Origin: a virus
Taxonomy: Duplodnaviria > Heunggongvirae > Uroviricota > Caudoviricetes
Direction: 5' to 3' (one strand)
Length of the DNA: 64,000 nucleotides
IMG/VR virus record: IMGVR_UViG_2875703104_000004
Shown here piece by piece: positions 1,790-25,600 of the stretch (position 1 is its first letter; each line of letters begins with the position of its first letter). The notes beneath the pieces are model-generated. The model was not told the DNA's origin, made no database searches, and saw only the letters and a program-made list of their open reading frames with translations. A program made the position numbers and the translations under genes.

Positions 1790-4381
1790 TTAAAAATCAG
1801 CCTGATTCGGGATCAGTTTTTGCCAGATAACTGAAACGTATTTTGCCTGGTAACGGGCGTCATCAAGTGCATTATGGCGCTCACCTTCGAATGGAATAGC
1901 CGTTCTGGCATCGAAGTCTATGGCTTTCCCCAGCTCAACGATTGTGCGTACATCGCGATCGTTGTAGTAACGCCACGGGCAGGGGATCCCCTGCCGTTCG
2001 TATGAACGGCGCAAAATCGTGTTGTCGAAGTTGGCTCCATTTCCCCAGACCTGAACAAAAAATTCACCGGAGTTTTCGTCGATAAATTCCCGCAATTGTA
2101 ACAGTGCATCATCTAACGGGATTTCATCGGTCATAATGGCAGATTGCGCTTCGCGTGATTGCTTAAGCCACCATTTAATGGTGTCCCGATCAATGACNCC
2201 GCCAGCAGTTTCCAGATCGATAGTCTTACTAAATTCCGGTCCCATATCTCCGGTTTGCGGATCGAAAAATATTGCACCTATTGAGATGATCGGGGCATCA
2301 GGATTTTTTCCCATGGTTTCAAGGTCGATCATTAGATGGTCACACGTCCTGCTGGTGGATGTGATTTCTTGATGACCGTTCACCTTAATTGAGTGATCTG
2401 CCGTCTCGCCAGTTTCATTATCGCTATCGTGATGCTGATTGCCGNCAGTGTTCTCCTTGTGTGGATGTTCAGCGCCTTCCATTTCCTCCGGATCATCTTC
2501 CTGAACTTCAACCTGATACTCTTCATCGAATGTTTCCTGGTATGTTGCGTCGCCCATCACCGCGCCACAATCAGGGCAGTTGCCGCCGCCGGTCTGACCG
2601 CAGGCGGTGCAGACTTTTTCCACTTCCTGTTGCGNNNNNNNNNNNNNNNNNNNNNCTTCAACCTGATACTCTTCATCGAATGTTTCCTGGTATGTTGCGT
2701 CGCCCATCACCGCGCCACAATCAGGGCAGTTGCCGCCGCCGGTCTGACCGCAGGCGGTGCAGACTTTTTCCACTTCCTGTTGCGCCACTGGTTCGGATTG
2801 TTTCGTTTCTGGCTCGTTTTGTAACGCATTTGGGCTGTTTTGTTCCGCTTTTTGGTCGTTCCGTTCCGATTCATGCTGGTTCTGGTTCACAGAATCGCGA
2901 GTCTGGATCCCTTTGACCCATTTCGGATCATTAGGGTCGCTAATCCCCTCAACAAATTCACCACGCGATACAGCAAGTAACTTATCGGCGTCAGGCTGGC
3001 TGATATTGGCTGCCTGCATAATTTTGTTTACTTCGTCAGCGGTGACTTTTACTTGGTTAGCGGAACTCACCTGCGACTGAGCATCCAGCGACTGCGCGTT
3101 CTGGCCATGTTCAGTTGTATCCGGTTCCATTGTTTCAGTTGTTGCCTGTTCACCTGCCATTGCGTCAGATGGTTGTGGTTTTTCTTCTTCTGTTTCACGC
3201 TCAGTAACCACCTCGCGGTTAATTTCTTCCAGGATATCTTTTTCCGGCGTATGCCGGGCAGCTGTGAGAGTTTCCTTGCTGGGGTTCTCGTGATCAGTTT
3301 CCGTCAAATAGGCGTTGATATACCCCTGAAGGCGTCCCGGGTAGTGATAAAATTCAGGGTGTGCGCTTCGGATAAGTGCAAAAATAGCGGCGCGGGAATA
3401 GTCCAGAATACCCGGGGTTGCACGAAGTGCTGCGGACCATTCTTTGAACGGACTTTCTTTGTTCAGGACTACTTCTTTTGCGCGACGATAAACGCTGCCC
3501 GGAATTTCATAAATATTAAAATCCATCGGAAGTGTGGCTGCTGCAATCTCCACATCCAGTGTGTCGAGGGTGTGTACTAAATTCGGATTGCGATCGGTTT
3601 TGTTCCCACCGCCAGCATTAGCACCGGAAGCCGTGCGGGTGATGCGTGAAACACGATTTCCTTTCATCCACTCTTTTGTCAGCAAACCCCGATCAGTGTA
3701 GTCAGCGTCTAGGTATGCTTCGAAAAAAGCAGTTATTAGTCCCAGGTCTGAATTACCAGGATTAGGGAAAACTTTGTCAGTGTCACGAACCAGTTTGTGG
3801 AGGTCGCGAATCTCCAGCGAGTCGAGCAGACTGGTTTTATGCGAAATAGCCAGGGCAGTAACAGCCGGTAGTTCTTCAGCCCGTGCAATGTGTAATGCCT
3901 GGAGTTCGTCGCGTGAAACGTGCGTTACTGGTTTTTCGCTGCCGTGTTGAGCAAGCCAACGAATGGGCAGTTCCTGACCGGAGACAGGCAGAAGCATGCT
4001 CTCCTCAATCTCAGTCATGGCTTCGCCGTTGATGTTGGTATTGTCAGTGCTGGCTGGTTTGTCCTGAACAGAGGGGGAAGGGCCGATAAATGTCATTGTG
4101 ATGCCATCTTTCCCGCCTTTTTCATAGCGGTTGCAGAATTCAGTATCAAACACGCCTTCTGGCGGAAGGTCGTCAACAACGGGCAAATTGACGCGGACGG
4201 GTTTTTTAAAGTCGTCTTCATCATAATCGTTGTCATCCATTGCGGTAATGCAGCGGGAGATTGCAACAGATAATTTTTTTGCTGTAGTCCAGTAAAAACC
4301 ACCTTTAATTCCTAGGCGTTTTCTTACTTTGTCATTTTTTGCTTCGCAATATAGTGCAAATTCTTCTTTATCAGTGCTCAT
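1790..4381 (-). CDS. RecE-family exonuclease: N-terminal region RecE-like, C-terminal DEDDh (DnaQ-like) 3'-5' exonuclease domain; interrupted by an N-run and carries single Ns
   Basis: 863-aa ORF; N-terminal stretch ([22 protein letters not shown]...) matches E. coli RecE as I recall it; C-terminus has DLETMG ... HNALDDARY motifs typical of DnaQ-like exonucleases. Confidence 0.8.
2506..2784. other. Assembly gap (21 N at 2635-2655) flanked by identical 129-bp copies (2506-2634 and 2656-2784) inside the exonuclease gene
   Basis: Seen directly; produces a duplicated 42-aa peptide block either side of the X run in the ORF translation. Confidence 0.85.
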
Positions 4382-4474
4382 TATTGGTAAACCTCATCAC
4401 AGATTTAAGGGTGAACAAATCTCTGCCATTGCTGACATATAAGAATGAAACTGGATATTTATTACGGTGCTGTT

Positions 4475-4666
4475 TTAAAATCCTGCCGGGATTTCGTTAT
4501 TATCCTGGTGAATAACTTTATCGACCGGATAACAGTTGCCTGGAATTTTCTGTTCGGTTGCTGCTGCCATACATTCCTGCATTGTTCTGTGAACACTGAC
4601 TGCAATATCAACTGACTCTCCGGAAACAAGAAAAACCGTCAGAATAAGTGCAAATACTGGATTCAT
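4475..4666 (-). CDS. Small hypothetical protein with hydrophobic N-terminus (63 aa)
   Basis: Internal start MNPVFALILTVFLVSG (signal-peptide-like) translationally coupled to the upstream ORF. Confidence 0.4.
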   Translation of the reverse strand: MNPVFALILTVFLVSGESVDIAVSVHRTMQECMAAATEQKIPGNCYPVDKVIHQDNNEIPAGF

Positions 4667-4851
4667 TGTGCACATCCTTTTGGCATCAGACGTAAACGGG
4701 CCAGCATTGAAACAATGCATACTTTATTTAATAACTCCCGTTCGTGTTTTCTTTTGTTAATGGCATCTTCAGTAAATACAGGATTACTGATAGTGACACC
4801 AATTTCAAAACAACCTTCAGACGTATTAACGTTTGGTAATAACGTTTTCAT
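4663..4851 (-). CDS. Small hypothetical prophage protein (62 aa)
   Basis: Internal ATG of ORF 4663-4956 preceded by GAGGG at suitable spacing; ATGA overlap with the next small ORF. Confidence 0.4.
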   Translation of the reverse strand: MKTLLPNVNTSEGCFEIGVTISNPVFTEDAINKRKHERELLNKVCIVSMLARLRLMPKGCAQ

Positions 4852-5120
4852 TATCGCGCCCTCAACAATGAGTTTTGTGATGCGGTGCCTGGTGCCTCCA
4901 GGTGACGTTAACCAGTTAACAATTAACGCCGGATACAGAGAATCCACCCATAACACTGTTTTTGGTTTTAACTGTTCCGCGTGCGCTTAGCCGCATTCAC
5001 CGCATCACAAAATTCACTTTAAAAAGGGCGGCAGAGCAGTCACGGAGTAAAACTGATACCGCCAAACGTCACCAGAAAATTGATAACAGAGGGCGTTGCA
5101 GTGGGGTTGTCACTTAAGCG

Positions 5121-5384
5121 TATGGTCAACCTGACAACCCGGTGTCCTCAACGGGGGAAGGAATAACCCCGCCATACTTACCGCCGCGCCATTTCGCGGA
5201 TTGCCACAACCGGAAGCGCACGGTCGACGAAAATTTAACGACAGGCTATCTATGGTCAACCTGACAACCCGGTGTCCTCAACGGGGGAAGGAATAACCCC
5301 GCCATACTTACCGCCGCGCCATTTCGCGGATTGCCACAACCGGAAGCGCACGGTCGACGAAAATTTAACGACAGGCTATCTATG
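5121..5384. repeat. Perfect tandem duplication of a 132-bp unit (5121-5252, 5253-5384)
   Basis: Seen directly; non-coding context; probably an assembly artefact. Confidence 0.8.
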
Positions 5385-5549
5385 AACCAGCTACCTCGCC
5401 GTGCGCTTTCGCGTTATGGTCTGACTTTTCAGGGAAATATCCTTTCAGTAAACTGTCAGTGCCGGATGCTCACCCGTGTCCGGCGCACGCACTCCACCTC
5501 ACCCGTGGAGAACTCCTTAATTACCAACCTTAGCTTCGTTGGTTATCTA

Positions 5550-15603: not shown

Positions 15604-16374
15604 GTGATTGATACAATGAAAACCTTAAGTGGGAAAGAGTTTAGGAAATTATTTAATCGTTATGAGACAGGATTCTATCTAAGTGAGTTTGAATACTTAA
15701 AGGACTTTGATCCTTTGTTTCCTGAATGCGTAGGGAAAGAATTAAAGTTGGGTTATAAACGAAAAGTTGATGTATGGTGCGAAGAGGATGCTGCGCTATA
15801 TGCAGAATTTATAGCTACAAAAGAAAGGCTGAAAAGAGGCCGGTTAATCCTAAAAATAAACCAAGTGTGGTCGCGTGTATATCCTGCTTATATTTATGCA
15901 ATTGAAGAAAGAATAAATGTCAGGGCAAAGGGGAGAGAGTCATTTAAGTATGAAACTGTGCAAGAAAAACAATGTAAACTTTCCATAATGTTAGATGGTC
16001 TGAAAGACCTTGAATGTGAAATAGCTATGATTTCAAGTGAGTTTGAAATTGAAAAACACTCTATGCACTATTTTTATATGATTTTTGATATTGAACGCTA
16101 TATAAATGACTGCAGTTACTTTGTTTTTTCTGCTGCTAAAGTTGTTAAAGGCGTGATTCAATGCATTGGTTACATTGACAAAAATAACAAAGCAAGTTGC
16201 GATGAATTTTATTCAGGCAGCTATGAATGCTTGGATGATGATCAGGAAACACTGAACTATTTAAATGAATCATGCGCAGAGGGTATAGACGCTGATAAAG
16301 ATCTCATCAGGAAGAATGAGTTATTAGCCTTATCCCTGAAGGAATTGTATCAACTTCTCGTTTCAAAAAAATAA
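15604..16374 (+). CDS. Hypothetical protein (256 aa), AT-rich, function unknown
   Basis: ORF-track ORF, low GC relative to prophage DNA; no motif recognised. Confidence 0.5.
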   Translation: MIDTMKTLSGKEFRKLFNRYETGFYLSEFEYLKDFDPLFPECVGKELKLGYKRKVDVWCEEDAALYAEFIATKERLKRGRLILKINQVWSRVYPAYIYAIEERINVRAKGRESFKYETVQEKQCKLSIMLDGLKDLECEIAMISSEFEIEKHSMHYFYMIFDIERYINDCSYFVFSAAKVVKGVIQCIGYIDKNNKASCDEFYSGSYECLDDDQETLNYLNESCAEGIDADKDLIRKNELLALSLKELYQLLVSKK

Positions 16375-16832
16375 CAAGTAATACGGCGAGCGATATGACG
16401 TGCCATGGGATATCCGCACCCAGCAGCATGTTGTCTCCACGATGTCCGCAGTTCGCTCATAATAGACATTCACTACAGTTATAGTAGAAGGTATGCATGC
16501 TGCTGAGTGGGGAAAGTGTGAAAGAAAAGAAGACAGCTGCTTTGTTTGTCGTCACGTTTATCTTCATTGGCTATGCAAGTCGTAATACAAGGCGGGACAA
16601 AACTGAGACACATAAGGCCTCGCAATGGCTTGCAAGGCCACACATGTATTGAGATGTTAATAAAATGTAGACTTGTAATTTTGATATAAATGGTAGAGAA
16701 AATCTTTCCCCAAAATAAAAACGAACGTCAATGAAATCAAACGGTTGAATAAAGTTGATTTTGGCTAATACAAAGACAAGAAAATAATATTTATGATTAA
16801 ATATCAGCGAGTTGAATACATAATTTTTATAT

Positions 16833-16998
16833 ACTGCTGCGCCACATGGGTTGGACCGAAGCGGCTGATTTAATTGTTAAAGGTATGGAAGGCGCAATCA
16901 ATGCGAAGACCGTAACCTATGACTTCGAACGTCTGATGGAAGGCGCTAAACTGTTGAAATGTTCAGAGTTTGGTGACGCGATCATCAAGAATATGTAA
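16833..16998 (+). pseudogene. icd: Displaced 3' fragment of icd (isocitrate dehydrogenase), last about 54 codons
   Basis: Translation [55 protein letters not shown] matches the Icd C-terminus by recall; no icd sequence upstream of 16833. Confidence 0.85.
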
Positions 16999-17021
16999 TC
17001 ACTACATGTGTTAAATATTAT

Positions 17022-17052
17022 AACGGGCGTATAACACGCCCGTTGTTTTTTG
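17022..17052 (+). terminator. Rho-independent terminator (icd terminator)
   Basis: Hairpin acgggcgt-ataa-cacgcccgt followed by TTTTTTGTT immediately after the icd stop. Confidence 0.7.
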
Positions 17053-17434
17053 TTAGCCTGCTAACGGTTATCAAAATTTTATCAAAATAAGTTATCAAAA
17101 CCCCTTGGTTGTTGGGGGGCTGCCAGATGGCAGTTCTCCTGCTAGGTTCCCTCGGGGCATTCCTCAGCTTTTTATTATTGCTGGTGGATGGCCGTTAATA
17201 TTTAAGATCTGTTATGCGCCAGACGCTGTGCTTACTAGAATATTGTTGTGTCAAATGGTTTGGTATACTCTGATTGTGGCTAATATGTAAATCATTTTAA
17301 CTAATAATTAAAATTTCTGAGGGTACTCGAGTTTTCTTATATATTTAACTTTCTCGCAATATACATTTACGTTTCTGTTGTTGTTTTTGATATAATTCAA
17401 TGAGTCTCAACAAAACAAGATTTTCGGAAATTAT

Positions 17435-18952
17435 ATGGATATCATTATTGTACCCCGAGACCAACGTATTCCTGCCTCAGGCATTAGTACGGCTTACTTG
17501 CATGTGGATCATTGGAATGACTTTTCATTCATTACAATGTTTTACATGTATCTGTTTGATCAGAAAGGTGAACGCCATGAAATTGGGAATGTCAAGATTG
17601 GTTTTCAAGGACAAACAACTCAACAATCAACTTACTCCACATTAGGGGACAGGTTTAAAATTCTCCCAGAAGGATATTTTTCCGTTGGTCAGGATGTCGA
17701 CTATTATCAGAGGATTTCAAATTTACCAGAATCCGTCAAAGTTTCGTTACTTGAGGCGCTCAAAGATATTGCTTATACGCCAGAACTTATAGATTTCGTT
17801 AAGAATGAAGCGGTCTTTAAAACGTCTTTGCTTCGGTATGTTAGCCTGTCTGTTATTAAAGGACAGTTTGCGCGAGTGCTTGAGGGAAAGGGTCCACTGA
17901 CTAATTTTGAGTTTAAGTTCATTCGCCCTGCACAAGACAAAATTTCCGATATTGAATTATCATTTAAGGTAAAAGTAGGAGAAAAACCAAGTACCAATAT
18001 TCATGCGATCATAGGTCGTAATGGTGTGGGGAAAACGACGATTCTAAATGGAATGATTGAAGCTGTTACCAGTAAAGGTACGTCGAACGCAAAATTTTAT
18101 GATCTGGAGGGGTGGAGAGAAGACCCGATTGATAATGATTACTTTAGTAGTTTAGTCTCTGTGTCATTTAGCGCATTCGATCCATTCGAGCCACCAAGTG
18201 AACAACCTGATCCATCAAAGGGAACTTGCTACTTCTATATAGGTTTGAAAAAAAAAGGAGAGTCGCTGAAAGGGCTAAATGATATTCATGAAGACTTTCT
18301 AGAAGCTTTGACGCTATGCTTTAGCCAGCATCCTAAGCGTGAAAGATGGCTGAAGGCCATTGATACTTTGGAGTCTGATGAAAATTTTGCAAGCATGGAG
18401 CTGAAAAATCTAGCGGAATACAATGATGAGATGCTCGTTAGTAATGCACGGAAATGTATAAAAAGGATGAGTTCCGGTCATGCGGTTGTGTTATTAACAC
18501 TCACACGTTTAGTCGCAACGGTAGAAGAAAAAACGTTAGTGCTAATTGATGAACCAGAGAGCCATCTTCATCCTCCGTTGCTGTCTGCTTTTATTCGTGC
18601 GCTGTCTGATTTGCTACTTGACAGAAATGGTCTTTCTATTATTGCTACTCACTCACCTGTGGTACTTCAAGAGGTCCCTAAACGATGTGTTTGGAAAATT
18701 AATCGTTCTAGATTATCTACCGAATCTCGCAGGCCAGACATTGAAACATTTGGTGAGAATGTAGGAATCTTAACAAGAGAGGTGTTTGGTCTTGAAGTTG
18801 TCAAATCTGGTTTTCACGATTTATTAGTCCAATCAGTTAAGTCAGGTGGAACATATGAGGAGATAGTTGATGAGTATCGTAACCAGCTTGGTGTTGAAGC
18901 TCGAGCTCTATTAAAAGCGCTTGTCACACACAGAGATCGGAGTGTTAAGTAA
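17435..18952 (+). CDS. ABC-type (AAA_15/AAA_21-like) ATPase with a 190-aa N-terminal domain of unknown function; first gene of a candidate defence pair
   Basis: 505-aa ORF; Walker A IIGRNGVGKTT, Walker B/D-loop LVLIDEPESHLHPPL, H-loop ATHSP; stop overlaps the start of the next gene (TAATG). Confidence 0.8.
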   Translation: MDIIIVPRDQRIPASGISTAYLHVDHWNDFSFITMFYMYLFDQKGERHEIGNVKIGFQGQTTQQSTYSTLGDRFKILPEGYFSVGQDVDYYQRISNLPESVKVSLLEALKDIAYTPELIDFVKNEAVFKTSLLRYVSLSVIKGQFARVLEGKGPLTNFEFKFIRPAQDKISDIELSFKVKVGEKPSTNIHAIIGRNGVGKTTILNGMIEAVTSKGTSNAKFYDLEGWREDPIDNDYFSSLVSVSFSAFDPFEPPSEQPDPSKGTCYFYIGLKKKGESLKGLNDIHEDFLEALTLCFSQHPKRERWLKAIDTLESDENFASMELKNLAEYNDEMLVSNARKCIKRMSSGHAVVLLTLTRLVATVEEKTLVLIDEPESHLHPPLLSAFIRALSDLLLDRNGLSIIATHSPVVLQEVPKRCVWKINRSRLSTESRRPDIETFGENVGILTREVFGLEVVKSGFHDLLVQSVKSGGTYEEIVDEYRNQLGVEARALLKALVTHRDRSVK

Positions 18953-19809
18953 TGTTGAAACTTAAACAACCTGCTTACACATATGCCGATATGCTGACTA
19001 GTTGCCGCGAAGGCATAACCGGTAATCCGGGCTTGTTGCTGAAAGTAAATGAAGCAATAACTGATTTGCAAACACTGGCAGCTTCATATAGCGCATCGGC
19101 ATCAACTGGTGAGCTTTATACAATACAACCATTGAAAAACAAAGATAAGGAAGACCCTATTGTTGTCGGTCGGTTAAAGAAATCTGACTTTGTTAAGCTT
19201 TATGGCAATTATGTTGTTGGGAAGAAAAAGCCTGCTCGAGCTATTTATGATTCCCTGATTACTGCTGCTAATGAAAAATGTCCATATTGTGGTGGAATTG
19301 GGCGCCCTCGAAATTTAGATCATTATTTGCCTAAAGCTTACTATCCTCAGTTTTCTATATTGCCAGTTAATCTGGTGCCTGCTTGTCGAGACTGTAATAT
19401 GGATGGCAAAGGGGAAGTTTTTGCAAGAAATGAAGCAGAACAGATCATACATCCCTATTTAGACGATAGCCGTTATTATGATGAACAGTGGATATCGGCT
19501 AGATACTTGGCTGGCAAAAATGATGAGCCAGGAGTTATTGAGTATTTTGTTTCTCCACCGGCTGATTGGGATGAAGCACACAAACAAAGAGTGGAAAAAC
19601 ATTTTAACGATTTTGATTTGTCTTTAAGATATTCGAAAGAGGCTAGTGCGAGATTAGTTGTACTTTTAGCTCTATATAACTCAGTGCTACCACTCTCCAG
19701 AGATAAAAATGCTGCTAAACACCTTATATTTCAAACAATAATTAATAAATCGCCTTTTGTGAATCATTGGGAACGGGTTATGTGTTTGGCTCTTATGTCA
19801 GACTTGTAG
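18952..19809 (+). CDS. HNH endonuclease-motif protein (285 aa); second gene of the candidate defence pair
   Basis: CPYCGG...LDHYLPKAYYP...N...PACRDCN, a zinc-finger HNH signature; translationally coupled to the ATPase gene. Confidence 0.8.
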   Translation: MLKLKQPAYTYADMLTSCREGITGNPGLLLKVNEAITDLQTLAASYSASASTGELYTIQPLKNKDKEDPIVVGRLKKSDFVKLYGNYVVGKKKPARAIYDSLITAANEKCPYCGGIGRPRNLDHYLPKAYYPQFSILPVNLVPACRDCNMDGKGEVFARNEAEQIIHPYLDDSRYYDEQWISARYLAGKNDEPGVIEYFVSPPADWDEAHKQRVEKHFNDFDLSLRYSKEASARLVVLLALYNSVLPLSRDKNAAKHLIFQTIINKSPFVNHWERVMCLALMSDL

Positions 19810-19864
19810 TAATGCTTGAAGTTTTTATTTCTGTTCTAATTTCGTAGTTCCATTTTATTAAATA

Positions 19865-19897
19865 GATACCAAGCTCTATGCATAAGAGCTTGGTATC
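19865..19897. terminator. Perfect 13-bp-stem hairpin (gataccaagctct / agagcttggtatc), candidate bidirectional terminator after the HNH gene
   Basis: Seen directly; flanking sequence only moderately T-rich. Confidence 0.4.
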
Positions 19898-20077
19898 TAT
19901 TGAAATTAAGCTCAATAACTGATCTGCTCTCCATTGATTAACACGTCACAATATTAGTAATGTAACTATTAGGTTTCGAGATTAACTGCGAACTTCTGCT
20001 TTTTGCTCAAAGTGGACTGTTTGGTTCTTTTTCAAGTGTAGTTCGAAATTCAAGGTGGCGTTAAGGCACTTAATGCT

Positions 20078-21204
20078 TTACAACGCTACTTTACTCCATC
20101 CTTTACCTCGATCATCATGATAACGATCGGTTTGCTGTTGCGTTTTATGACCAAGTAGTTTTTGTGTATTTAAACCCTGTTCTTTATACAAACGTTCTGA
20201 TAAAGACCTTTGTTCATGAAATGTTGCGGGAGAACCTTCACCCCAGTTAATTCCTGCTAAATCCCTCGCTTTACTGAAATTCATCGTCAATGTATTGGCT
20301 TTAACCTGCGCGCCGCGTTCAGCCTGTGAGGTAGTACGAAAAAAATGTACAAGGTATGGGCTGACAGCATAGTCACGGCAGCGGGCTACTACATCGCGCA
20401 AACTCCATTTAATCGCATTGAGACGCAGGGAAAGCGGGATGGCGATTTTGCTCCCGGTTTTTTCCTGGATGACATGGAGATGATCATCCCAAATATCGCT
20501 AAATTTCATACGCGAGATATCACCTAACCTCTGGCCGGTAACCAGTGCTAACAGCATGGCATTCCCCATATAACGATGACTGGCATCAGCGATATCAAAG
20601 ATTTTTTGCCACTCTTCAAGACTTAACCGTTGTCGGGTAATTTTTCTTCTGGGCTGTTTGGTGGCTAATGCCGGGTTATAGCCAGGGGGACTTCTCCGTA
20701 GTGTTGCGCCTCTTTGAAAACATCAATCAGTACGGAACGAACTACTTGCGCCATTCTCGGCTGTCCGGCGGCGATATACTCGTCAAGCAACTGGGCTATA
20801 TCCCTGACATCAACGGCTGAAATTAACTTCAGTCCTGCTCGTTCCCTGAGCAAGGATACTGGTTTGGCTTTCTGTTTATAGGTGTTGAGCTTTATATCGC
20901 CACTTTTCAGTCTGTCTTCCTGGATTGCTTGATAGCGATCTAACCAGGTTGACGTTGTGATTGCTTTTCCTTTGCTGGTTGCGATCCTGTCACTGATAGC
21001 TAGAATCTGCCGGGTTCTTTGCTCAGCTAGGCGTGTATTGGCCTCAGTGGCAATAGCAATGGCTTCAGCTTCGTTTGTGCCCAAAGAATGAAACTTCCCG
21101 GTCACTGGATGCTTATATCGCCAATAAACTTTATTTACTTTTCTGCTATAGAGCGGATACAAGTTCGGGACTGAAACATTATTCTTACGTGGTCTGGCTG
21201 CCAT
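20078..21204 (-). pseudogene. int: Lambda-Int-like integrase split by a -1 frameshift in a C5 homopolymer (G run on the + strand at 20685-20689)
   Basis: N-terminal ORF 20665-21204 and C-terminal ORF 20078-20569 are co-linear with the integrase at 1-1119; adding one C restores ...GEVPPGYNPALATKQPRRKITRQRL... Confidence 0.8.
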
Positions 21205-21317
21205 TACTTAAAATCCTTTGTAGAATAATAGAATCACTTTTCTTAATGACAGGAGTAACTAATTCTCCAACTAACTCTGCGTCCTCACGTACTCGCCATA
21301 GTCGACCTTGTTTCATT
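21185..21317 (-). CDS. Small ORF in the xis position (43 aa), just left of the IS911 end
   Basis: ATG at 21317, overlaps the int start; assignment by position only. Confidence 0.3.
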
Positions 21318-21396
21318 GCCGGTGTGTAGTGGCACACTGAATTTGGCCACCTGAACAGAGGTGATATGCTCACCTCAGAACAACACAGGTGCTCCA

Positions 21397-21657
21397 ATGA
21401 AAAAAAGAAATTTCAGCGCAGAGTTTAAACGCGAATCCGCTCAACTGGTTGTTGACCAGAACTACACGGTGGCAGATGCCGCCAAAGCTATGGATATCGG
21501 CCTTTCCACAATGACAAGATGGGTCAAACAACTGCGTGATGAGCGTCAGGGCAAAACACCAAAAGCCTCTCCGATAACACCAGAACAAATCGAAATACGT
21601 GAGCTGAGGAAAAAGCTACAACGCATTGAAATGGAGAATGAAATATTAAAAAANGCN
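21397..21657 (+). pseudogene. IS911 orfA, 5' part, interrupted by the IS30 left end
   Basis: Reading frame ends at the junction with TGTAGATTCAATTGG; Ns at 21654 and 21657. Confidence 0.7.
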
Positions 21658-21723
21658 ACTGTAGATTCAATTGGTCAACGCAACAGTTATGTGAAAACAT
21701 GGGGTTGCGGAGGTTTTTTGAAT

Positions 21724-23332
21724 GAGACGAACATTTACAGCAGAGGAAAAAGCCTCTGTTTTTGAACTATGGAAGAACGGAACAGGCTTCAGTGAAATAG
21801 CGAATATCCTGGGTTCAAAACCCGGAACGATCTTCACTATGTTAAGGGATACTGGCGGCATAAAACCCCATGAGCGTAAGCGGGCTGTAGCTCACCTGAC
21901 ACTGTCTGAGCGCGAGGAGATACGAGCTGGTTTGTCAGCCAAAATGAGCATTCGTGCGATAGCTACTGCGCTGAATCGCAGTCCTTCGACGATCTCACGT
22001 GAAGTTCAGCGTAATCGGGGCAGACGCTATTACAAAGCTGTTGATGCTAATAACCGAGCCAACAGAATGGCGAAAAGGCCAAAACCGTGCTTACTGGATC
22101 AAAATTTACCATTGCGAAAGCTTGTTCTGGAAAAGCTGGAGATGAAATGGTCTCCAGAGCAAATATCAGGATGGTTAAGGCGAACAAAACCACGTCAAAA
22201 AACGCTGCGAATATCACCTGAGACAATTTATAAAACGCTGTACTTTCGTAGCCGTGAAGCGCTACACCACCTGAATATACAGCATCTGCGACGGTCGCAT
22301 AGCCTTCGCCATGGCAGGCGTCATACCCGCAAAGGCGAAAGAGGTATGAACCGCCCCGGGAATCCTGGAGACTAAACTTCCTGAGAAAGAGGTAAACAGG
22401 ATGACTAAAAATACTCGTTTTTCCCCCGAAGTCCGTCAACGGGCAGTCCGTATGGTTCTGGAAAGTCAGAGCGAATATGACTCACAATGGGCGACAATTT
22501 GTTCCATTGCTCCAAAGATTGGCTGTACGCCGGAGACTCTGCGTGTCTGGGTTCGCCAGCATGAGCGGGATACCGGGGGCGGTGATGGAGGGCTCACCAC
22601 CGCTGAACGTCAGCGTCTGAAAGAGCTGGAACGTGAAAATCGTGAACTGCGCCGCAGTAACGATATCCTTCGCCAGGCTTCCGCTTATTTTGCGAAGGCG
22701 GAGTTCGACCGCCTCTGGAAAAAATNCGAATATCACCTGAGACAATTTATAAAACGCTGTACTTTCGTAGCCGTGAAGCGCTACACCACCTGAATATACA
22801 GCATCTGCGACGGTCGCATAGCCTTCGCCATGGCAGGCGTCATACCCGCAAAGGCGAAAGAGGTACGATTAACATAGTGAACGGAACACCAATTCACGAA
22901 CGTTCCCGAAATATCGATAACAGACGCTCTCTGGGACATTGGGAGGGCGATTTAGTCTCAGGTACAAAAAACTCTCATATAGCCACACTTGTAGACCGAA
23001 AATCACGTTATACGATCATCCTTAGACTCAGGGGCAAAGATTCTGTCTCAGTAAATCAGGCTCTTACCGACAAATTCCTGAGTTTACCGTCAGAACTCAG
23101 AAAATCACTGACATGGGACAGAGGAATGGAACTGGCCAGACATCTAGAATTTACTGTCAGCACCGGCGTTAAAGTTTACTTCTGCGATCCTCAGAGTCCT
23201 TGGCAGCGGGGAACAAATGAGAACACAAATGGGCTAATTCGGCAGTACTTTCCTAAAAAGACATGTCTTGCCCAATATACTCAACATGAACTAGATCTGG
23301 TTGCTGCTCAGCTAAACAACAGAACCGCGCTC
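21724..23332 (+). pseudogene. IS30 transposase gene, split by the IS629-like insertion/duplication and missing its last about 25 codons
   Basis: N-part 21724-22370 and C-part 22862-23332 (HWEGDL...GTNENTNGLIRQYFPK); the ORF ends in IS911-derived sequence. Confidence 0.7.
22376..22725 (+). mobile_element. IS629/IS1203-like (IS3 family) left end with orfA, cut off at an N join
   Basis: Terminal TGAACCGCCCCGGG and Orf[42 protein letters not shown]... (recall); sequence returns to IS30 after the N at 22726. Confidence 0.65.

Positions 23333-25600
<2,268 letters not shown>

What the first reader, a model, noticed from the sequence alone, without database searches (positions are those of the whole stretch)
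17435..19809. Overlapping ABC-ATPase + HNH-nuclease gene pair in the att-to-int cargo slot: candidate anti-phage defence module, Septu-like but atypical
Two genes are translationally coupled (TAATG at 18950-18954). The first (505 aa) has Walker A IIGRNGVGKTT, Walker B/D-loop LVLIDEPESHLHPPL and H-loop ATHSP, but these start only at about residue 190; the N-terminal 190 aa carry no motif I recognise. The second (285 aa) has a zinc-finger HNH signature (CPYCGG...DHYLP...N...CRDCN). ATPase+HNH is the Septu (PtuA/PtuB) architecture, but canonical PtuA begins with the ATPase head, so this may be a distinct variant. The pair is AT-rich compared with the flanking prophage DNA and sits between the icd attachment-site fragment and the integrase, the position where prophage e14 carries lit.
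Basis: partly seen in the sequence, partly recalled or inferred. Interest (0 to 1): 0.85.

Follow-up and report, generated by a model that had tools for sequence, protein, structure and literature searches.

The report
Lambda Ea59/Ea31-type ATPase–HNH defence candidate
This overlapping ATPase–nuclease gene pair in a decayed E. coli prophage is a relative of phage lambda's long-unexplained ea59/ea31 genes and of the Septu anti-phage system; it is a catalogued but untested defence candidate, not a new kind of system.

Summary
Two intact ORFs (17435-18952, 505 aa; 18952-19809, 285 aa) overlap at TAATG, are AT-rich (39.5% vs 49.6% GC), and lie between an icd 3' fragment and a frameshifted intE. 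That is the slot where K-12 e14 carries lit.

The "Septu-like but atypical" reading is supported, but the family is already catalogued. Both proteins match PADLOC candidate PDC-M01 full length (A 3e-217, B 1e-114). The ATPase also matches one PADLOC PtuA model (4e-239). The pair is homologous end to end to lambda Ea59 (53%) and Ea31 (39%).

In 79 of 80 diverse genomes the pair is conserved without a third gene. It carries its own conserved promoter, is under purifying selection (dN/dS ~0.15), and moves between prophages, an ICE and type I R-M operons.

I found no experimental test. The PDC systems are described as untested. The most likely function is a PtuAB-like, ATP-gated HNH nuclease complex for anti-phage defence.

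The parts
17204..17434 (+). Conserved upstream region that travels with the gene pair. It holds an extended -10 promoter element TGATATAAT at 17388-17396 (TATAAT at 17391-17396) and a GGA Shine-Dalgarno at 17426-17428.
   Evidence: Conserved in four unrelated contexts: the e14-like prophage, an E. coli ICE, Pseudescherichia and Tatumella (alignment A4). The boundary comes from blastn. The consensus scanner found no -35/-10 pair here. The extended -10 is my own reading of the invariant block, so the promoter is inferred, not shown.
17435..18952 (+). Ea59-like / PtuA-like ABC ATPase gene (505 aa).
17435..17899 (+). Family-specific N-terminal domain (residues 1 to ~155; a five-stranded sheet plus a helical bundle). 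I propose it is a sensor or regulatory domain.
18950..18954 (+). TAATG stop/start overlap (translational coupling).
   Evidence: The ICE allele has the equivalent TGATG junction. Lambda ea59 and ea31 overlap by 4 nt.
18952..19809 (+). Ea31-like / PtuB-like HNH nuclease gene (285 aa) with a CCCC zinc finger and an H-N-N catalytic motif.
19861..19901 (+). Perfect 17-bp hairpin downstream of the pair. It may act as a terminator or RNA-stabilising element. It lies inside a 78-bp insertion (19842-19919) that other copies of the module lack.
   Evidence: Fold has centroid energy -25.9 kcal/mol and z=-4.5. No T-run follows, so the terminator scan did not call it. The insertion is shown by blastn against L084 and L053.
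16846..16998 (+). icd 3' fragment (attachment-site duplicate) marking the left end of the e14-like element. An intrinsic terminator follows at 17020-17046.
   Evidence: Translation matches the icd C-terminus. 100% identity from 16835 onward to icd-pair-intE loci. Terminator.
20078..21204 (-). intE integrase pseudogene, split into ORFs at 20078-20569 and 20665-21204. It converges on the pair.
   Evidence: Annotated 'frameshifted' in the identical locus of MCJCHV-1. About 90% identical to K-12 intE.

Best explanation
This is a self-contained, horizontally mobile two-gene module of the lambda Ea59/Ea31 family (PADLOC candidate PDC-M01), a distant branch of the Septu PtuA/PtuB ATPase-nuclease systems. 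It is carried as a 'moron' in the cargo slot of a decayed e14-like prophage.

Shown here:
- An intact ABC ATPase gene is translationally coupled to an intact zinc-finger HNH nuclease gene.
- The two are strictly co-inherited across phyla.
- They have their own conserved upstream region.
- They are under purifying selection.
- They are found on mobile elements and in defence contexts.

Inferred mechanism, by analogy with solved PtuAB complexes: the ATPase oligomerises through its ABC heads and holds the HNH partner on its C-terminal region in an ATP-bound, inactive state. An infection cue is read through the family-specific N-terminal domain. That cue releases or activates the nuclease, which then cuts nucleic acid and stops phage replication, probably at a cost to the infected cell.

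My estimates: anti-phage or anti-MGE defence about 0.7; a PtuAB-like ATPase-nuclease complex about 0.6. For the substrate, DNA is more likely (about 0.55) than tRNA (about 0.3). The cue is unknown. Single-stranded DNA is my leading guess, because lambda is reported to encode an ssDNA-dependent endonuclease. Mapping that enzyme to ea31/ea59 rests only on my memory.
For: Family identity:
- PADLOC full-length hits: PtuA model PDLC00282 (4e-239), PDC-M01A (3e-217) and PDC-M01B (1e-114).
- Lambda's own Ea59/Ea31 score the same way and are 53% and 39% identical over the full length.
- PHROGs places both proteins full length in phage families.

Structure:
- The Foldseek top ~26 hits are all PtuA.
- Profile searches of the PDB also rank retron PtuA and PtuB first.

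Catalytic residues are invariant in both proteins.

Obligate pairing: the HNH gene lies directly downstream on the same strand in 79 of 80 loci, from Proteobacteria, Bacteroidota, Cyanobacteria, Desulfobacterota and Saccharibacteria. The one exception is a truncated contig. No third gene is conserved.

Defence and mobile-element context:
- HsdR ends 2-15 nt upstream in most of the 7 loci where it neighbours the pair. HsdS, HsdM, integrases and an OLD-family ATPase are also nearby.
- The E. coli 94% allele is on an ICE beside a DUF4297 gene pair and HigA.
- The icd-to-intE slot holds Lit in K-12, a DUF262/NsnA-like gene in strain A17 and an AriA-like ATPase pair in STEC17-183.

Other support:
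- Patchy distribution: 90 of 5426 E. coli genomes.
- Purifying selection: dN/dS 0.15 and 0.16.
- A conserved promoter region travels with the pair.

Mechanistic precedent from the literature:
- EcSeptu forms a 6:2 PtuA:PtuB complex whose nuclease ATP inhibits. The substrate differs between homologues: plasmid nicking, ssDNA or tRNA-Tyr (PMC12640716; PMC13096335).
- Ec78 PtuA uses an N-terminal extension to contact its sensor (PMC12819146).
- Lambda encodes an ssDNA-dependent endonuclease (PMC5241400, citing Benchimol 1982).
Against: - I found no experimental test of this family. The PDC systems are explicitly '145 untested phage defence candidates' (bioRxiv 10.1101/2024.01.29.577857), and another study excluded them as unvalidated.
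- Sequence similarity to validated PtuA/PtuB is weak. NCBIfam PtuA scores 56.5 bits against a cutoff of 500. TIGR02646 (PtuB) scores 15.3 against 52.15. Identity in the structural alignments is 12-21%.
- In lambda the homologues are delayed-early lytic genes and are non-essential (the transcription pattern is from established lambda knowledge). They are not obviously expressed from the prophage, so the ancestral role could serve the phage rather than the host.
- The promoter is inferred only. The consensus scanner found none.
- Complex formation, ATP gating, trigger and substrate are all analogy.
Confidence: 0.7

Rival explanations
1. It is simply canonical Septu (type I PtuA/PtuB). [quoted passage not shown] The N-terminal domain would be a minor decoration.
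For: A PADLOC HMM labelled PtuA matches full length (4e-239). The best structural matches are PtuA and PtuB. The gene order and overlap are the same as in Septu.
Against: - PADLOC's 25 best models for the nuclease are all PDC-M01B. No PtuB model appears among them.
- The NCBIfam PtuA and PtuB (TIGR02646) models fall far below their cutoffs.
- No Pfam HNH family hits the nuclease.
- Walker A is at K200 rather than ~K43, and the catalytic His is at H124 rather than H75.
- The ~155-aa N-domain is conserved in 1576 clusters and always N-terminal among the hits listed, so it is a defining feature and not a decoration.
- The signature motif ends in an invariant His (MSSGH). Ec78 has Gln and EcSeptu has Leu at that position.
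Confidence: 0.2
2. It is a weapon that serves the phage rather than the host. As in lambda, the pair would be expressed during lytic growth or induction, to attack competing phages, satellites, plasmids or host DNA, or to process DNA for the phage's own benefit.
For: The founding members, lambda ea59/ea31, lie in the b region downstream of int and attP in the leftward early transcription unit (plus established lambda knowledge) and are non-essential. A lambda-encoded ssDNA-dependent endonuclease is on record.
Against: - In this window the pair is transcribed towards int, not with it.
- It carries its own upstream region, conserved across non-phage contexts.
- It stays 100% conserved in 60 or more genomes, although the prophage is dead (frameshifted int, IS insertions).
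- Most family members lie in chromosomal islands, R-M operons or ICEs. Only lambda-like phages among 50,697 phage records carry it.
Confidence: 0.12
3. It is a selfish addiction (toxin-antitoxin-like) module. The HNH nuclease would be the toxin and the ATPase its restraint, and the pair would persist because losing it kills the cell, not because it defends.
For: Retron-free PtuAB is toxic when expressed (PMC12640716). The pair is always inherited together, sits on mobile elements, and lies next to a HigA antitoxin gene in the ICE copy.
Against: - Embedding inside type I R-M operons and defence hotspots fits defence better than plasmid-style addiction.
- Strong conservation of every ATPase catalytic motif suggests regulated enzymology rather than simple sequestration.
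- Addiction and abortive-infection defence are not mutually exclusive.
Confidence: 0.1
4. It is a housekeeping DNA-repair or recombination pair: a RecF/Rad50-like ATPase with an accessory nuclease.
Against: - It is present in only 1.7% of E. coli genomes.
- It is AT-rich relative to the host and always lies on mobile DNA.
- It has no conserved chromosomal neighbourhood.
- No repair-family profile hit passes its cutoff.
Confidence: 0.02

Closest known systems
Phage lambda Ea59 / Ea31 (b-region genes lambdap82 / lambdap81)
   Same: Full-length homologues (53% and 39% identity). The gene order is the same, ATPase then HNH, with overlapping stop and start. They have the same N-terminal domain and the same PADLOC profile assignments. 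Both sit next to the integration module of a lambdoid phage.
   Different: In lambda the pair lies across attP from int and is co-oriented with it in the early leftward unit. Here it lies on the int side of the attachment site, converges on int and has its own upstream region. Lambda also has ea47 downstream, which is not conserved with the pair.
PADLOC phage-defence candidate PDC-M01 (Payne et al. 2024 preprint, 'guilt-by-embedding')
   Same: Both proteins match A and B models end to end (3e-217 and 1e-114). They are adjacent on the same strand. Some family members are embedded next to type I R-M genes, the criterion by which PDCs were found.
   Different: Nothing structural; this locus is a member. 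The family is a prediction only and is described as untested.
Septu type I (PtuA/PtuB; E. coli structures 8EE4, 8EE7, 8EEA)
   Different: Only 12-16% identity in the structural alignments. An extra ~155-aa N-terminal domain moves Walker A from ~K43 to K200. The nuclease is longer (285 aa against ~215-235) and its catalytic His is at 124 rather than 75. The NCBIfam and Pfam PtuB/HNH profiles do not reach threshold.
Type I-A retron effectors (Retron-Eco7/Ec78 and Eco4/Ec83 PtuAB; Septu type II)
   Different: No reverse transcriptase ORF and no retron ncRNA lie upstream here. The N-terminal domain is larger and unrelated in sequence.
Other ABC-ATPase defence pairs (PARIS AriA/AriB, Gabija GajA, OLD, AbiL)
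   Different: Their effector is a Toprim/DUF4435 nuclease, not a zinc-finger HNH. Profile scores are 200 or more orders of magnitude weaker than for PDC-M01.
Lit peptidase of prophage e14
   Same: It occupies the same cargo slot, in the same orientation, immediately before intE in the K-12 e14 element. It is a proven abortive-infection gene (established knowledge).
   Different: It is an unrelated protein with an unrelated mechanism (a protease acting on EF-Tu). Only the genomic niche is shared.

Membership tests
PDC-M01 (PADLOC candidate system) | Protein A matches a PDC-M01A profile over its full length | tested here: met
   PDLC04235, E=3.3e-217, residues 1-502 against profile positions 1-507 of 510.
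PDC-M01 (PADLOC candidate system) | Protein B matches a PDC-M01B profile over its full length and is adjacent on the same strand | tested here: met
   PDLC04256, E=1.1e-114, residues 1-284 against positions 1-277 of 285. The genes overlap by 1 nt.
PDC-M01 (PADLOC candidate system) | Some family members are embedded in or abutting type I R-M, BREX or DISARM operons (the basis of the prediction) | tested here: met
   An HsdR gene lies upstream in 7 of 79 loci, ending 2-15 nt upstream in most. HsdS (6 loci) and HsdM (5 loci) are nearby.
PDC-M01 (PADLOC candidate system) | Confers phage resistance | not testable with these tools
   The source describes the PDC systems as untested, and another study excluded them as unvalidated.
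Lambda Ea59/Ea31 family | Full-length homology of both proteins to lambda Ea59 and Ea31 | tested here: met
   530 bits at 53% identity over 519 columns; 214 bits at 39% identity over 306 columns.
Lambda Ea59/Ea31 family | ATPase gene first, nuclease gene second, with overlapping stop and start | tested here: met
   Lambda ea59 occupies 3921-5498 and ea31 occupies 5495-6385 in L002. The window has TAATG.
Lambda Ea59/Ea31 family | ssDNA- and ATP-dependent endonuclease activity (the lambda 'ben' enzyme; its assignment to these genes is from memory only) | not testable with these tools
   I found only a secondary citation that lambda encodes an ssDNA-dependent endonuclease. The mapping to ea31/ea59 could not be verified.
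Septu type I (PtuA/PtuB) | Two-gene operon: ABC-type ATPase followed by an HNH nuclease | tested here: met
Septu type I (PtuA/PtuB) | The ATPase matches a PtuA profile | tested here: inconclusive
   Met for PADLOC PDLC00282 (4e-239, full length). Other PADLOC PtuA models hit only the C-terminal ~90 residues (1e-14 to 4e-27). NCBIfam PtuA NF041760 scores 56.5 bits against a cutoff of 500.
Septu type I (PtuA/PtuB) | The nuclease matches PtuB or HNH sequence profiles | tested here: not met
   TIGR02646 scores 15.3 bits against a cutoff of 52.15. No Pfam family hits at E<=0.1. The 25 best PADLOC models are all PDC-M01B, and any PtuB model must score worse than 3e-14; the display cap hid the rest.
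Septu type I (PtuA/PtuB) | PtuA-like and PtuB-like folds | tested here: met
Septu type I (PtuA/PtuB) | ATPase head at the N-terminus (Walker A Lys ~K43) with no large N-terminal domain | tested here: not met
   Walker A Lys is K200. Residues 1 to ~155 form a separate domain. The canonical positions come from PMC13096335.
Septu type I (PtuA/PtuB) | 6:2 PtuA:PtuB assembly with an ATP-inhibited nuclease | not testable with these tools
   Literature description only. No complex prediction was available.
Type I-A retron (Septu type II) | A reverse transcriptase gene and an msr/msd ncRNA upstream of ptuA | tested here: not met
   No RT-sized ORF lies between the icd fragment and the ATPase gene. Rfam finds no retron RNA in 16400-20200. 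No third gene is conserved in 79 loci.
PARIS / Gabija / OLD-type ATPase-Toprim systems | A Toprim/DUF4435 nuclease domain fused to or partnered with the ABC ATPase | tested here: not met
   The partner is a CCCC zinc-finger HNH. AriA and GajA-type hits are limited to the shared ATPase core.

The most novel reading that the evidence does not exclude
The Ea59/Ea31 family is a defence system in its own right rather than a Septu subtype. Its conserved ~155-aa N-terminal domain would be a new kind of sensor, for example for single-stranded DNA or replication or recombination intermediates. That sensor would switch on the HNH nuclease in an ATP-dependent way, the opposite polarity to the ATP-inhibited EcSeptu. 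Phage lambda would then have carried an immune-type module in its b region all along, used for inter-phage or anti-satellite warfare. This would finally assign a function to ea59/ea31 and to the old lambda 'ssDNA-dependent endonuclease'.
Probability: 0.3. Interest if true: 0.65.

Novelty: new member of a known kind. Interest (0 to 1): 0.4.

Why it matters
The family is very widespread. The ATPase search returned more than 7,700 clusters at 90% identity, at least 561 species-level genomes encode a relative, and the N-domain alone defines 1,576 clusters at 50% identity. Yet I could find no experimental test of it.

It links three things that the literature available to me treats separately:
- the orphan ea59/ea31 genes of the best-studied temperate phage;
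- a PADLOC 'guilt-by-embedding' candidate;
- the structurally characterised Septu and retron PtuAB effectors.

If the module defends, lambda itself encodes a Septu-like immune module. The conserved N-terminal domain would then be a tractable example of how ABC-ATPase–nuclease effectors gain new sensors, parallel to the N-terminal extension that couples Ec78 PtuA to its retron.

The icd-to-intE slot of e14-like prophages also emerges as a defence hotspot, with several cargo genes that no current defence library recognises.

For this particular locus the practical value is modest. It is an ordinary, intact copy of a catalogued candidate, and it comes with a ready-to-clone native promoter.

Tried and rejected
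- **Pfam on the nuclease.** No hit even at E<=0.1. The HNH assignment therefore rests on motifs, PADLOC, PHROGs and the fold.
- **A conserved third gene such as lambda ea47.** None was found. The apparent top neighbour cluster was the HNH gene itself in loci where tblastn coverage was partial. Ea47 has no PADLOC hit.
- **The plasmid hit.** The only full-length match in the plasmid collection is a 237-kb linear 'plasmid' that carries icd, phoPQ and purB, so it is a chromosomal fragment. (One search also reports two plasmid-record places in the E. coli collection; I did not inspect them separately.)
- **Seeing PtuB models in PADLOC output.** The 25-row display cap is filled by PDC-M01B models, both for the single protein and for the 32-member alignment. 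This is unresolved.
- **Literature.** No held paper links ea59/ea31 to an ATPase, to defence or to Septu. The ben = ea31/ea59 mapping could not be verified. The Septu structure paper and the lambda review were not held. The E. coli nuclease-system screen tested canonical Septu (PtuB H75), not this family.
- **Promoter scanner.** It found no -35/-10 pair upstream. I rely instead on the invariant extended -10.
- **Rfam.** No retron RNA. The only hit is a sub-threshold STnc150-like match on the minus strand.
Full report
**1.

The window contains two intact same-strand ORFs, at 17435-18952 (505 aa) and 18952-19809 (285 aa). They are joined by a TAATG stop/start overlap at 18950-18954.

- ATPase: Walker A (residues 192-202, K200), Walker B (D372/E373), H-loop (H406) and a signature-like MSSGH (residues 345-349).
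- Nuclease: C110/C113, D123-H124, N140 and C145/C148-N149.

The pair is 39.5% GC against 49.6% for the window. It lies between an icd 3' fragment (16846-16998) and an integrase on the opposite strand (20078-21204). In K-12 e14, lit occupies the same place and orientation, immediately before intE.

Two corrections apply. In the AF2 model (pLDDT 85.4, pTM 0.84), residues ~158-195 are the ordinary beta-strands that precede Walker A in ABC heads, so the truly extra domain is about 150-155 aa. Also, the integrase is split into two ORFs and is annotated as frameshifted in an identical locus, with IS30, IS3 and ISEc21 elements beyond it. The pair therefore sits in a dead prophage remnant.

**2. What the proteins are**

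Pfam sees only AAA_21/AAA_15/ABC_tran on the C-terminal two-thirds of the ATPase, and nothing on the nuclease.

PADLOC-DB is decisive. The ATPase matches PDLC00282, a model labelled PtuA, end to end (E=4e-239). It also matches PDC-M01A end to end (3e-217). The nuclease matches PDC-M01B end to end (1e-114). NCBIfam's curated PtuA and PtuB (TIGR02646) models are hit only weakly, far below their cutoffs (56.5 against 500 bits; 15.3 against 52 bits).

A distant DNA search of phage genomes found about 69% identity to phage lambda's ea59 and ea31. At protein level the matches are full length: 53% identity to Ea59 and 39% to Ea31. Lambda's own pair scores as PDC-M01A/B plus PDLC00282. PHROGs places both proteins full length in phage families, phrog_8066 (unknown function) and phrog_10378 (HNH endonuclease).

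**3. Structure**

None of these alignments covers residues 1 to ~155. That domain (a five-stranded sheet plus a helical bundle) has no Pfam or PDB sequence match. An exhaustive phmmer search of 1.84 billion representatives found it in 1,576 clusters. Among the 150 best hits listed it is always N-terminal. The full-length hits are ~490-560 aa, and the shorter ones look like fragments.

**4. Distribution, linkage and context**

The ATPase search returned more than 7,700 clusters at 90% identity, and at least 561 species-level genomes encode a relative.

I fetched 80 diverse loci, from Gamma-, Alpha- and Betaproteobacteria, Bacteroidota, Cyanobacteria, Desulfobacterota and Saccharibacteria. In 79 of them the HNH gene lies directly downstream on the same strand. 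The one exception is a contig that ends 257 nt after the ATPase gene. No third gene is conserved.

Recurrent neighbours, confirmed by Pfam, include:
- type I R-M HsdR, which ends 2-15 nt upstream in most of the 7 loci where it occurs, together with HsdS and HsdM;
- tyrosine integrases;
- an OLD-family ATPase-Toprim protein;
- a UvrD-like helicase.

In E. coli, 90 of 5,426 complete genomes carry the pair. Most have the icd-pair-intE arrangement at 99% identity or more. A 94% allele lies on an integrative conjugative element at tRNA-Thr, next to a DUF4297 gene pair and HigA. The 'plasmid' hit is a chromosomal fragment. Among 50,697 phage records, only lambda and its close relatives, plus one faecal phage, carry the family.

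**5. The module is a unit under selection**

About 230 nt upstream of the start codon are conserved in four different genomic contexts. They include an invariant TTTTTGATATAAT block (extended -10, window 17388-17396) and the ribosome-binding region. Similarity to the other contexts runs from 17204 or 17329 through 19841 and resumes at 19920-20017. The segment in between is a 78-bp insertion that holds a perfect 17-bp hairpin.

Comparing the window with the ICE allele gives dN/dS of 0.15 for the ATPase and 0.16 for the nuclease. The N-terminal domain (0.28) evolves about three times faster than the rest of the ATPase (0.09). That is what one expects of a specificity or sensor domain, although the counts are small (17 and 12 non-synonymous changes).

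**6. The slot is a defence hotspot**

In other e14-like prophages the icd-to-intE interval holds different cargo:
- K-12: ymfD, ymfE and lit (PADLOC Lit, 8.5e-124).
- Strain A17: a DUF262 NsnA/PD-T4-2-like gene.
- STEC17-183: an AriA/PD-T4-4-like ABC ATPase with a 188-aa partner.
- KE58 and TUM1880: genes that no PADLOC model recognises.

**7. What is known, and how it probably works**

The PDC systems were predicted by 'guilt-by-embedding' in BREX, DISARM and type I R-M loci. Their source describes them as 145 untested candidates (bioRxiv 10.1101/2024.01.29.577857), and a later study excluded them as unvalidated. Only two genome-survey papers mention PDC-M01. Papers that mention ea59/ea31 treat them as dispensable b-region genes. 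None of the held papers links them to an ATPase, to defence or to Septu.

For Septu proper the literature reports the following:
- E. coli PtuAB forms a 6:2 complex whose nuclease ATP inhibits.
- Different homologues nick plasmid DNA, cleave ssDNA or cleave tRNA-Tyr (PMC12640716; PMC13096335).
- Walker and HNH mutants lose defence.
- Retron Ec78 PtuA acquired an N-terminal extension that contacts its sensor (PMC12819146).

By analogy, I propose that the Ea59-like ATPase oligomerises and holds the Ea31-like nuclease inactive. The N-terminal domain reads an infection cue, and the released nuclease cuts DNA (less likely tRNA) and so stops phage replication.

Lambda is on record as encoding an ssDNA-dependent endonuclease (Benchimol et al. 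1982, cited in PMC5241400). My recollection that this 'ben' activity maps to ea31/ea59 could not be verified. It is offered only as a lead for the trigger.

**8. Classification and novelty**

The locus passes every testable criterion for PDC-M01 and for the lambda Ea59/Ea31 family.

For Septu it meets the architectural and fold criteria and matches one PADLOC PtuA profile. It fails the PtuB and HNH sequence-profile criteria and the criterion that the ATPase head sits at the N-terminus. It is not a retron system, because there is no RT and no ncRNA. It is not a Toprim-type system such as PARIS, Gabija or OLD.

I therefore describe it as working like Septu but belonging to a distinct, already catalogued sister family.

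Its residual interest lies in three things: the unverified defence function, the uncharacterised N-terminal domain and the connection to lambda's orphan genes.

Noticed in passing
window 15604-16374 (+): An AT-rich (~34% GC) 256-aa ORF with no Pfam, NCBIfam or meaningful PADLOC hit. It matches phrog_20520 (unknown function) full length. It sits at the right end of a sitABCD-carrying, icd-integrated prophage, just before the icd' fragment. The same arrangement occurs in ~739 E. coli genomes, including Nissle 1917 and ATCC 25922. It could be another moron or defence gene.
   Followed up: partly
window 1-21300: Two icd-integrating elements appear to lie in tandem. A sit-carrying prophage ends at the icd' fragment (16846-16998) and a bidirectional terminator (17020-17046). 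The e14-like remnant begins immediately after. In strains such as MCJCHV-1 the full icd gene directly precedes the pair instead.
   Followed up: partly
window 19842-19919: A 78-bp insertion, relative to the ICE and Tatumella copies of the module, holds a perfect 17-bp inverted repeat (19861-19901; z=-4.5). It could be a small mobile or terminator-like element.
   Followed up: partly
window ~17329 (alignment A4 columns 291-326): The window and the identical E. coli icd copies lack a ~36-bp segment (TTCCTTTAATTAGTAGCGTAACCGCAAAAA...) that is present in the conserved upstream region of the ICE, Pseudescherichia and Tatumella copies. This might alter regulation.
   Followed up: no
window 17012-17258 (-): A sub-threshold but full-model-length Rfam match to the Hfq-binding sRNA STnc150 (34.9 bits against a gathering score of 60; E=6.6e-5). 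It lies on the minus strand between the icd fragment and the module's promoter region. K-12 annotates a different sRNA (C0293) in the equivalent position after icd.
   Followed up: no
L088:3854-5940; L089:1879-5898; L090:2058-5746; L087:4174-5885: The icd-to-intE slot of other e14-like prophages carries other cargo: an AriA/PD-T4-4-like ATPase with an overlapping 188-aa partner (STEC17-183); a 1040-aa plus a 156-aa protein (KE58); three proteins of 301, 375 and 314 aa (TUM1880); and a DUF262 NsnA-like protein plus a 216-aa partner (A17). Most have no PADLOC hit, so they are candidate unrecognised defence genes.
   Followed up: partly
L084:10677-13414: In the ICE-borne 94% allele, the pair is followed on the opposite strand by a DUF4297-domain protein and a 550-aa protein (possibly Lamassu-like) and preceded by a HigA antitoxin gene. 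Together they form a small defence island at tRNA-Thr beside proA.
   Followed up: no
window 20078-24000: intE is split into two ORFs (frameshifted). It is followed by fragments of IS3-family, IS30 and IS110/ISEc21 elements. Even so, the ATPase-HNH module is 100% identical in dozens of genomes that share this decayed arrangement, many of them human clinical isolates.
   Followed up: partly
window, scattered (for example ~14.0-14.4 kb and ~21.65 kb): The window contains 37 N bases, which appear as X in several translations. None falls inside the two genes of the finding.
   Followed up: no
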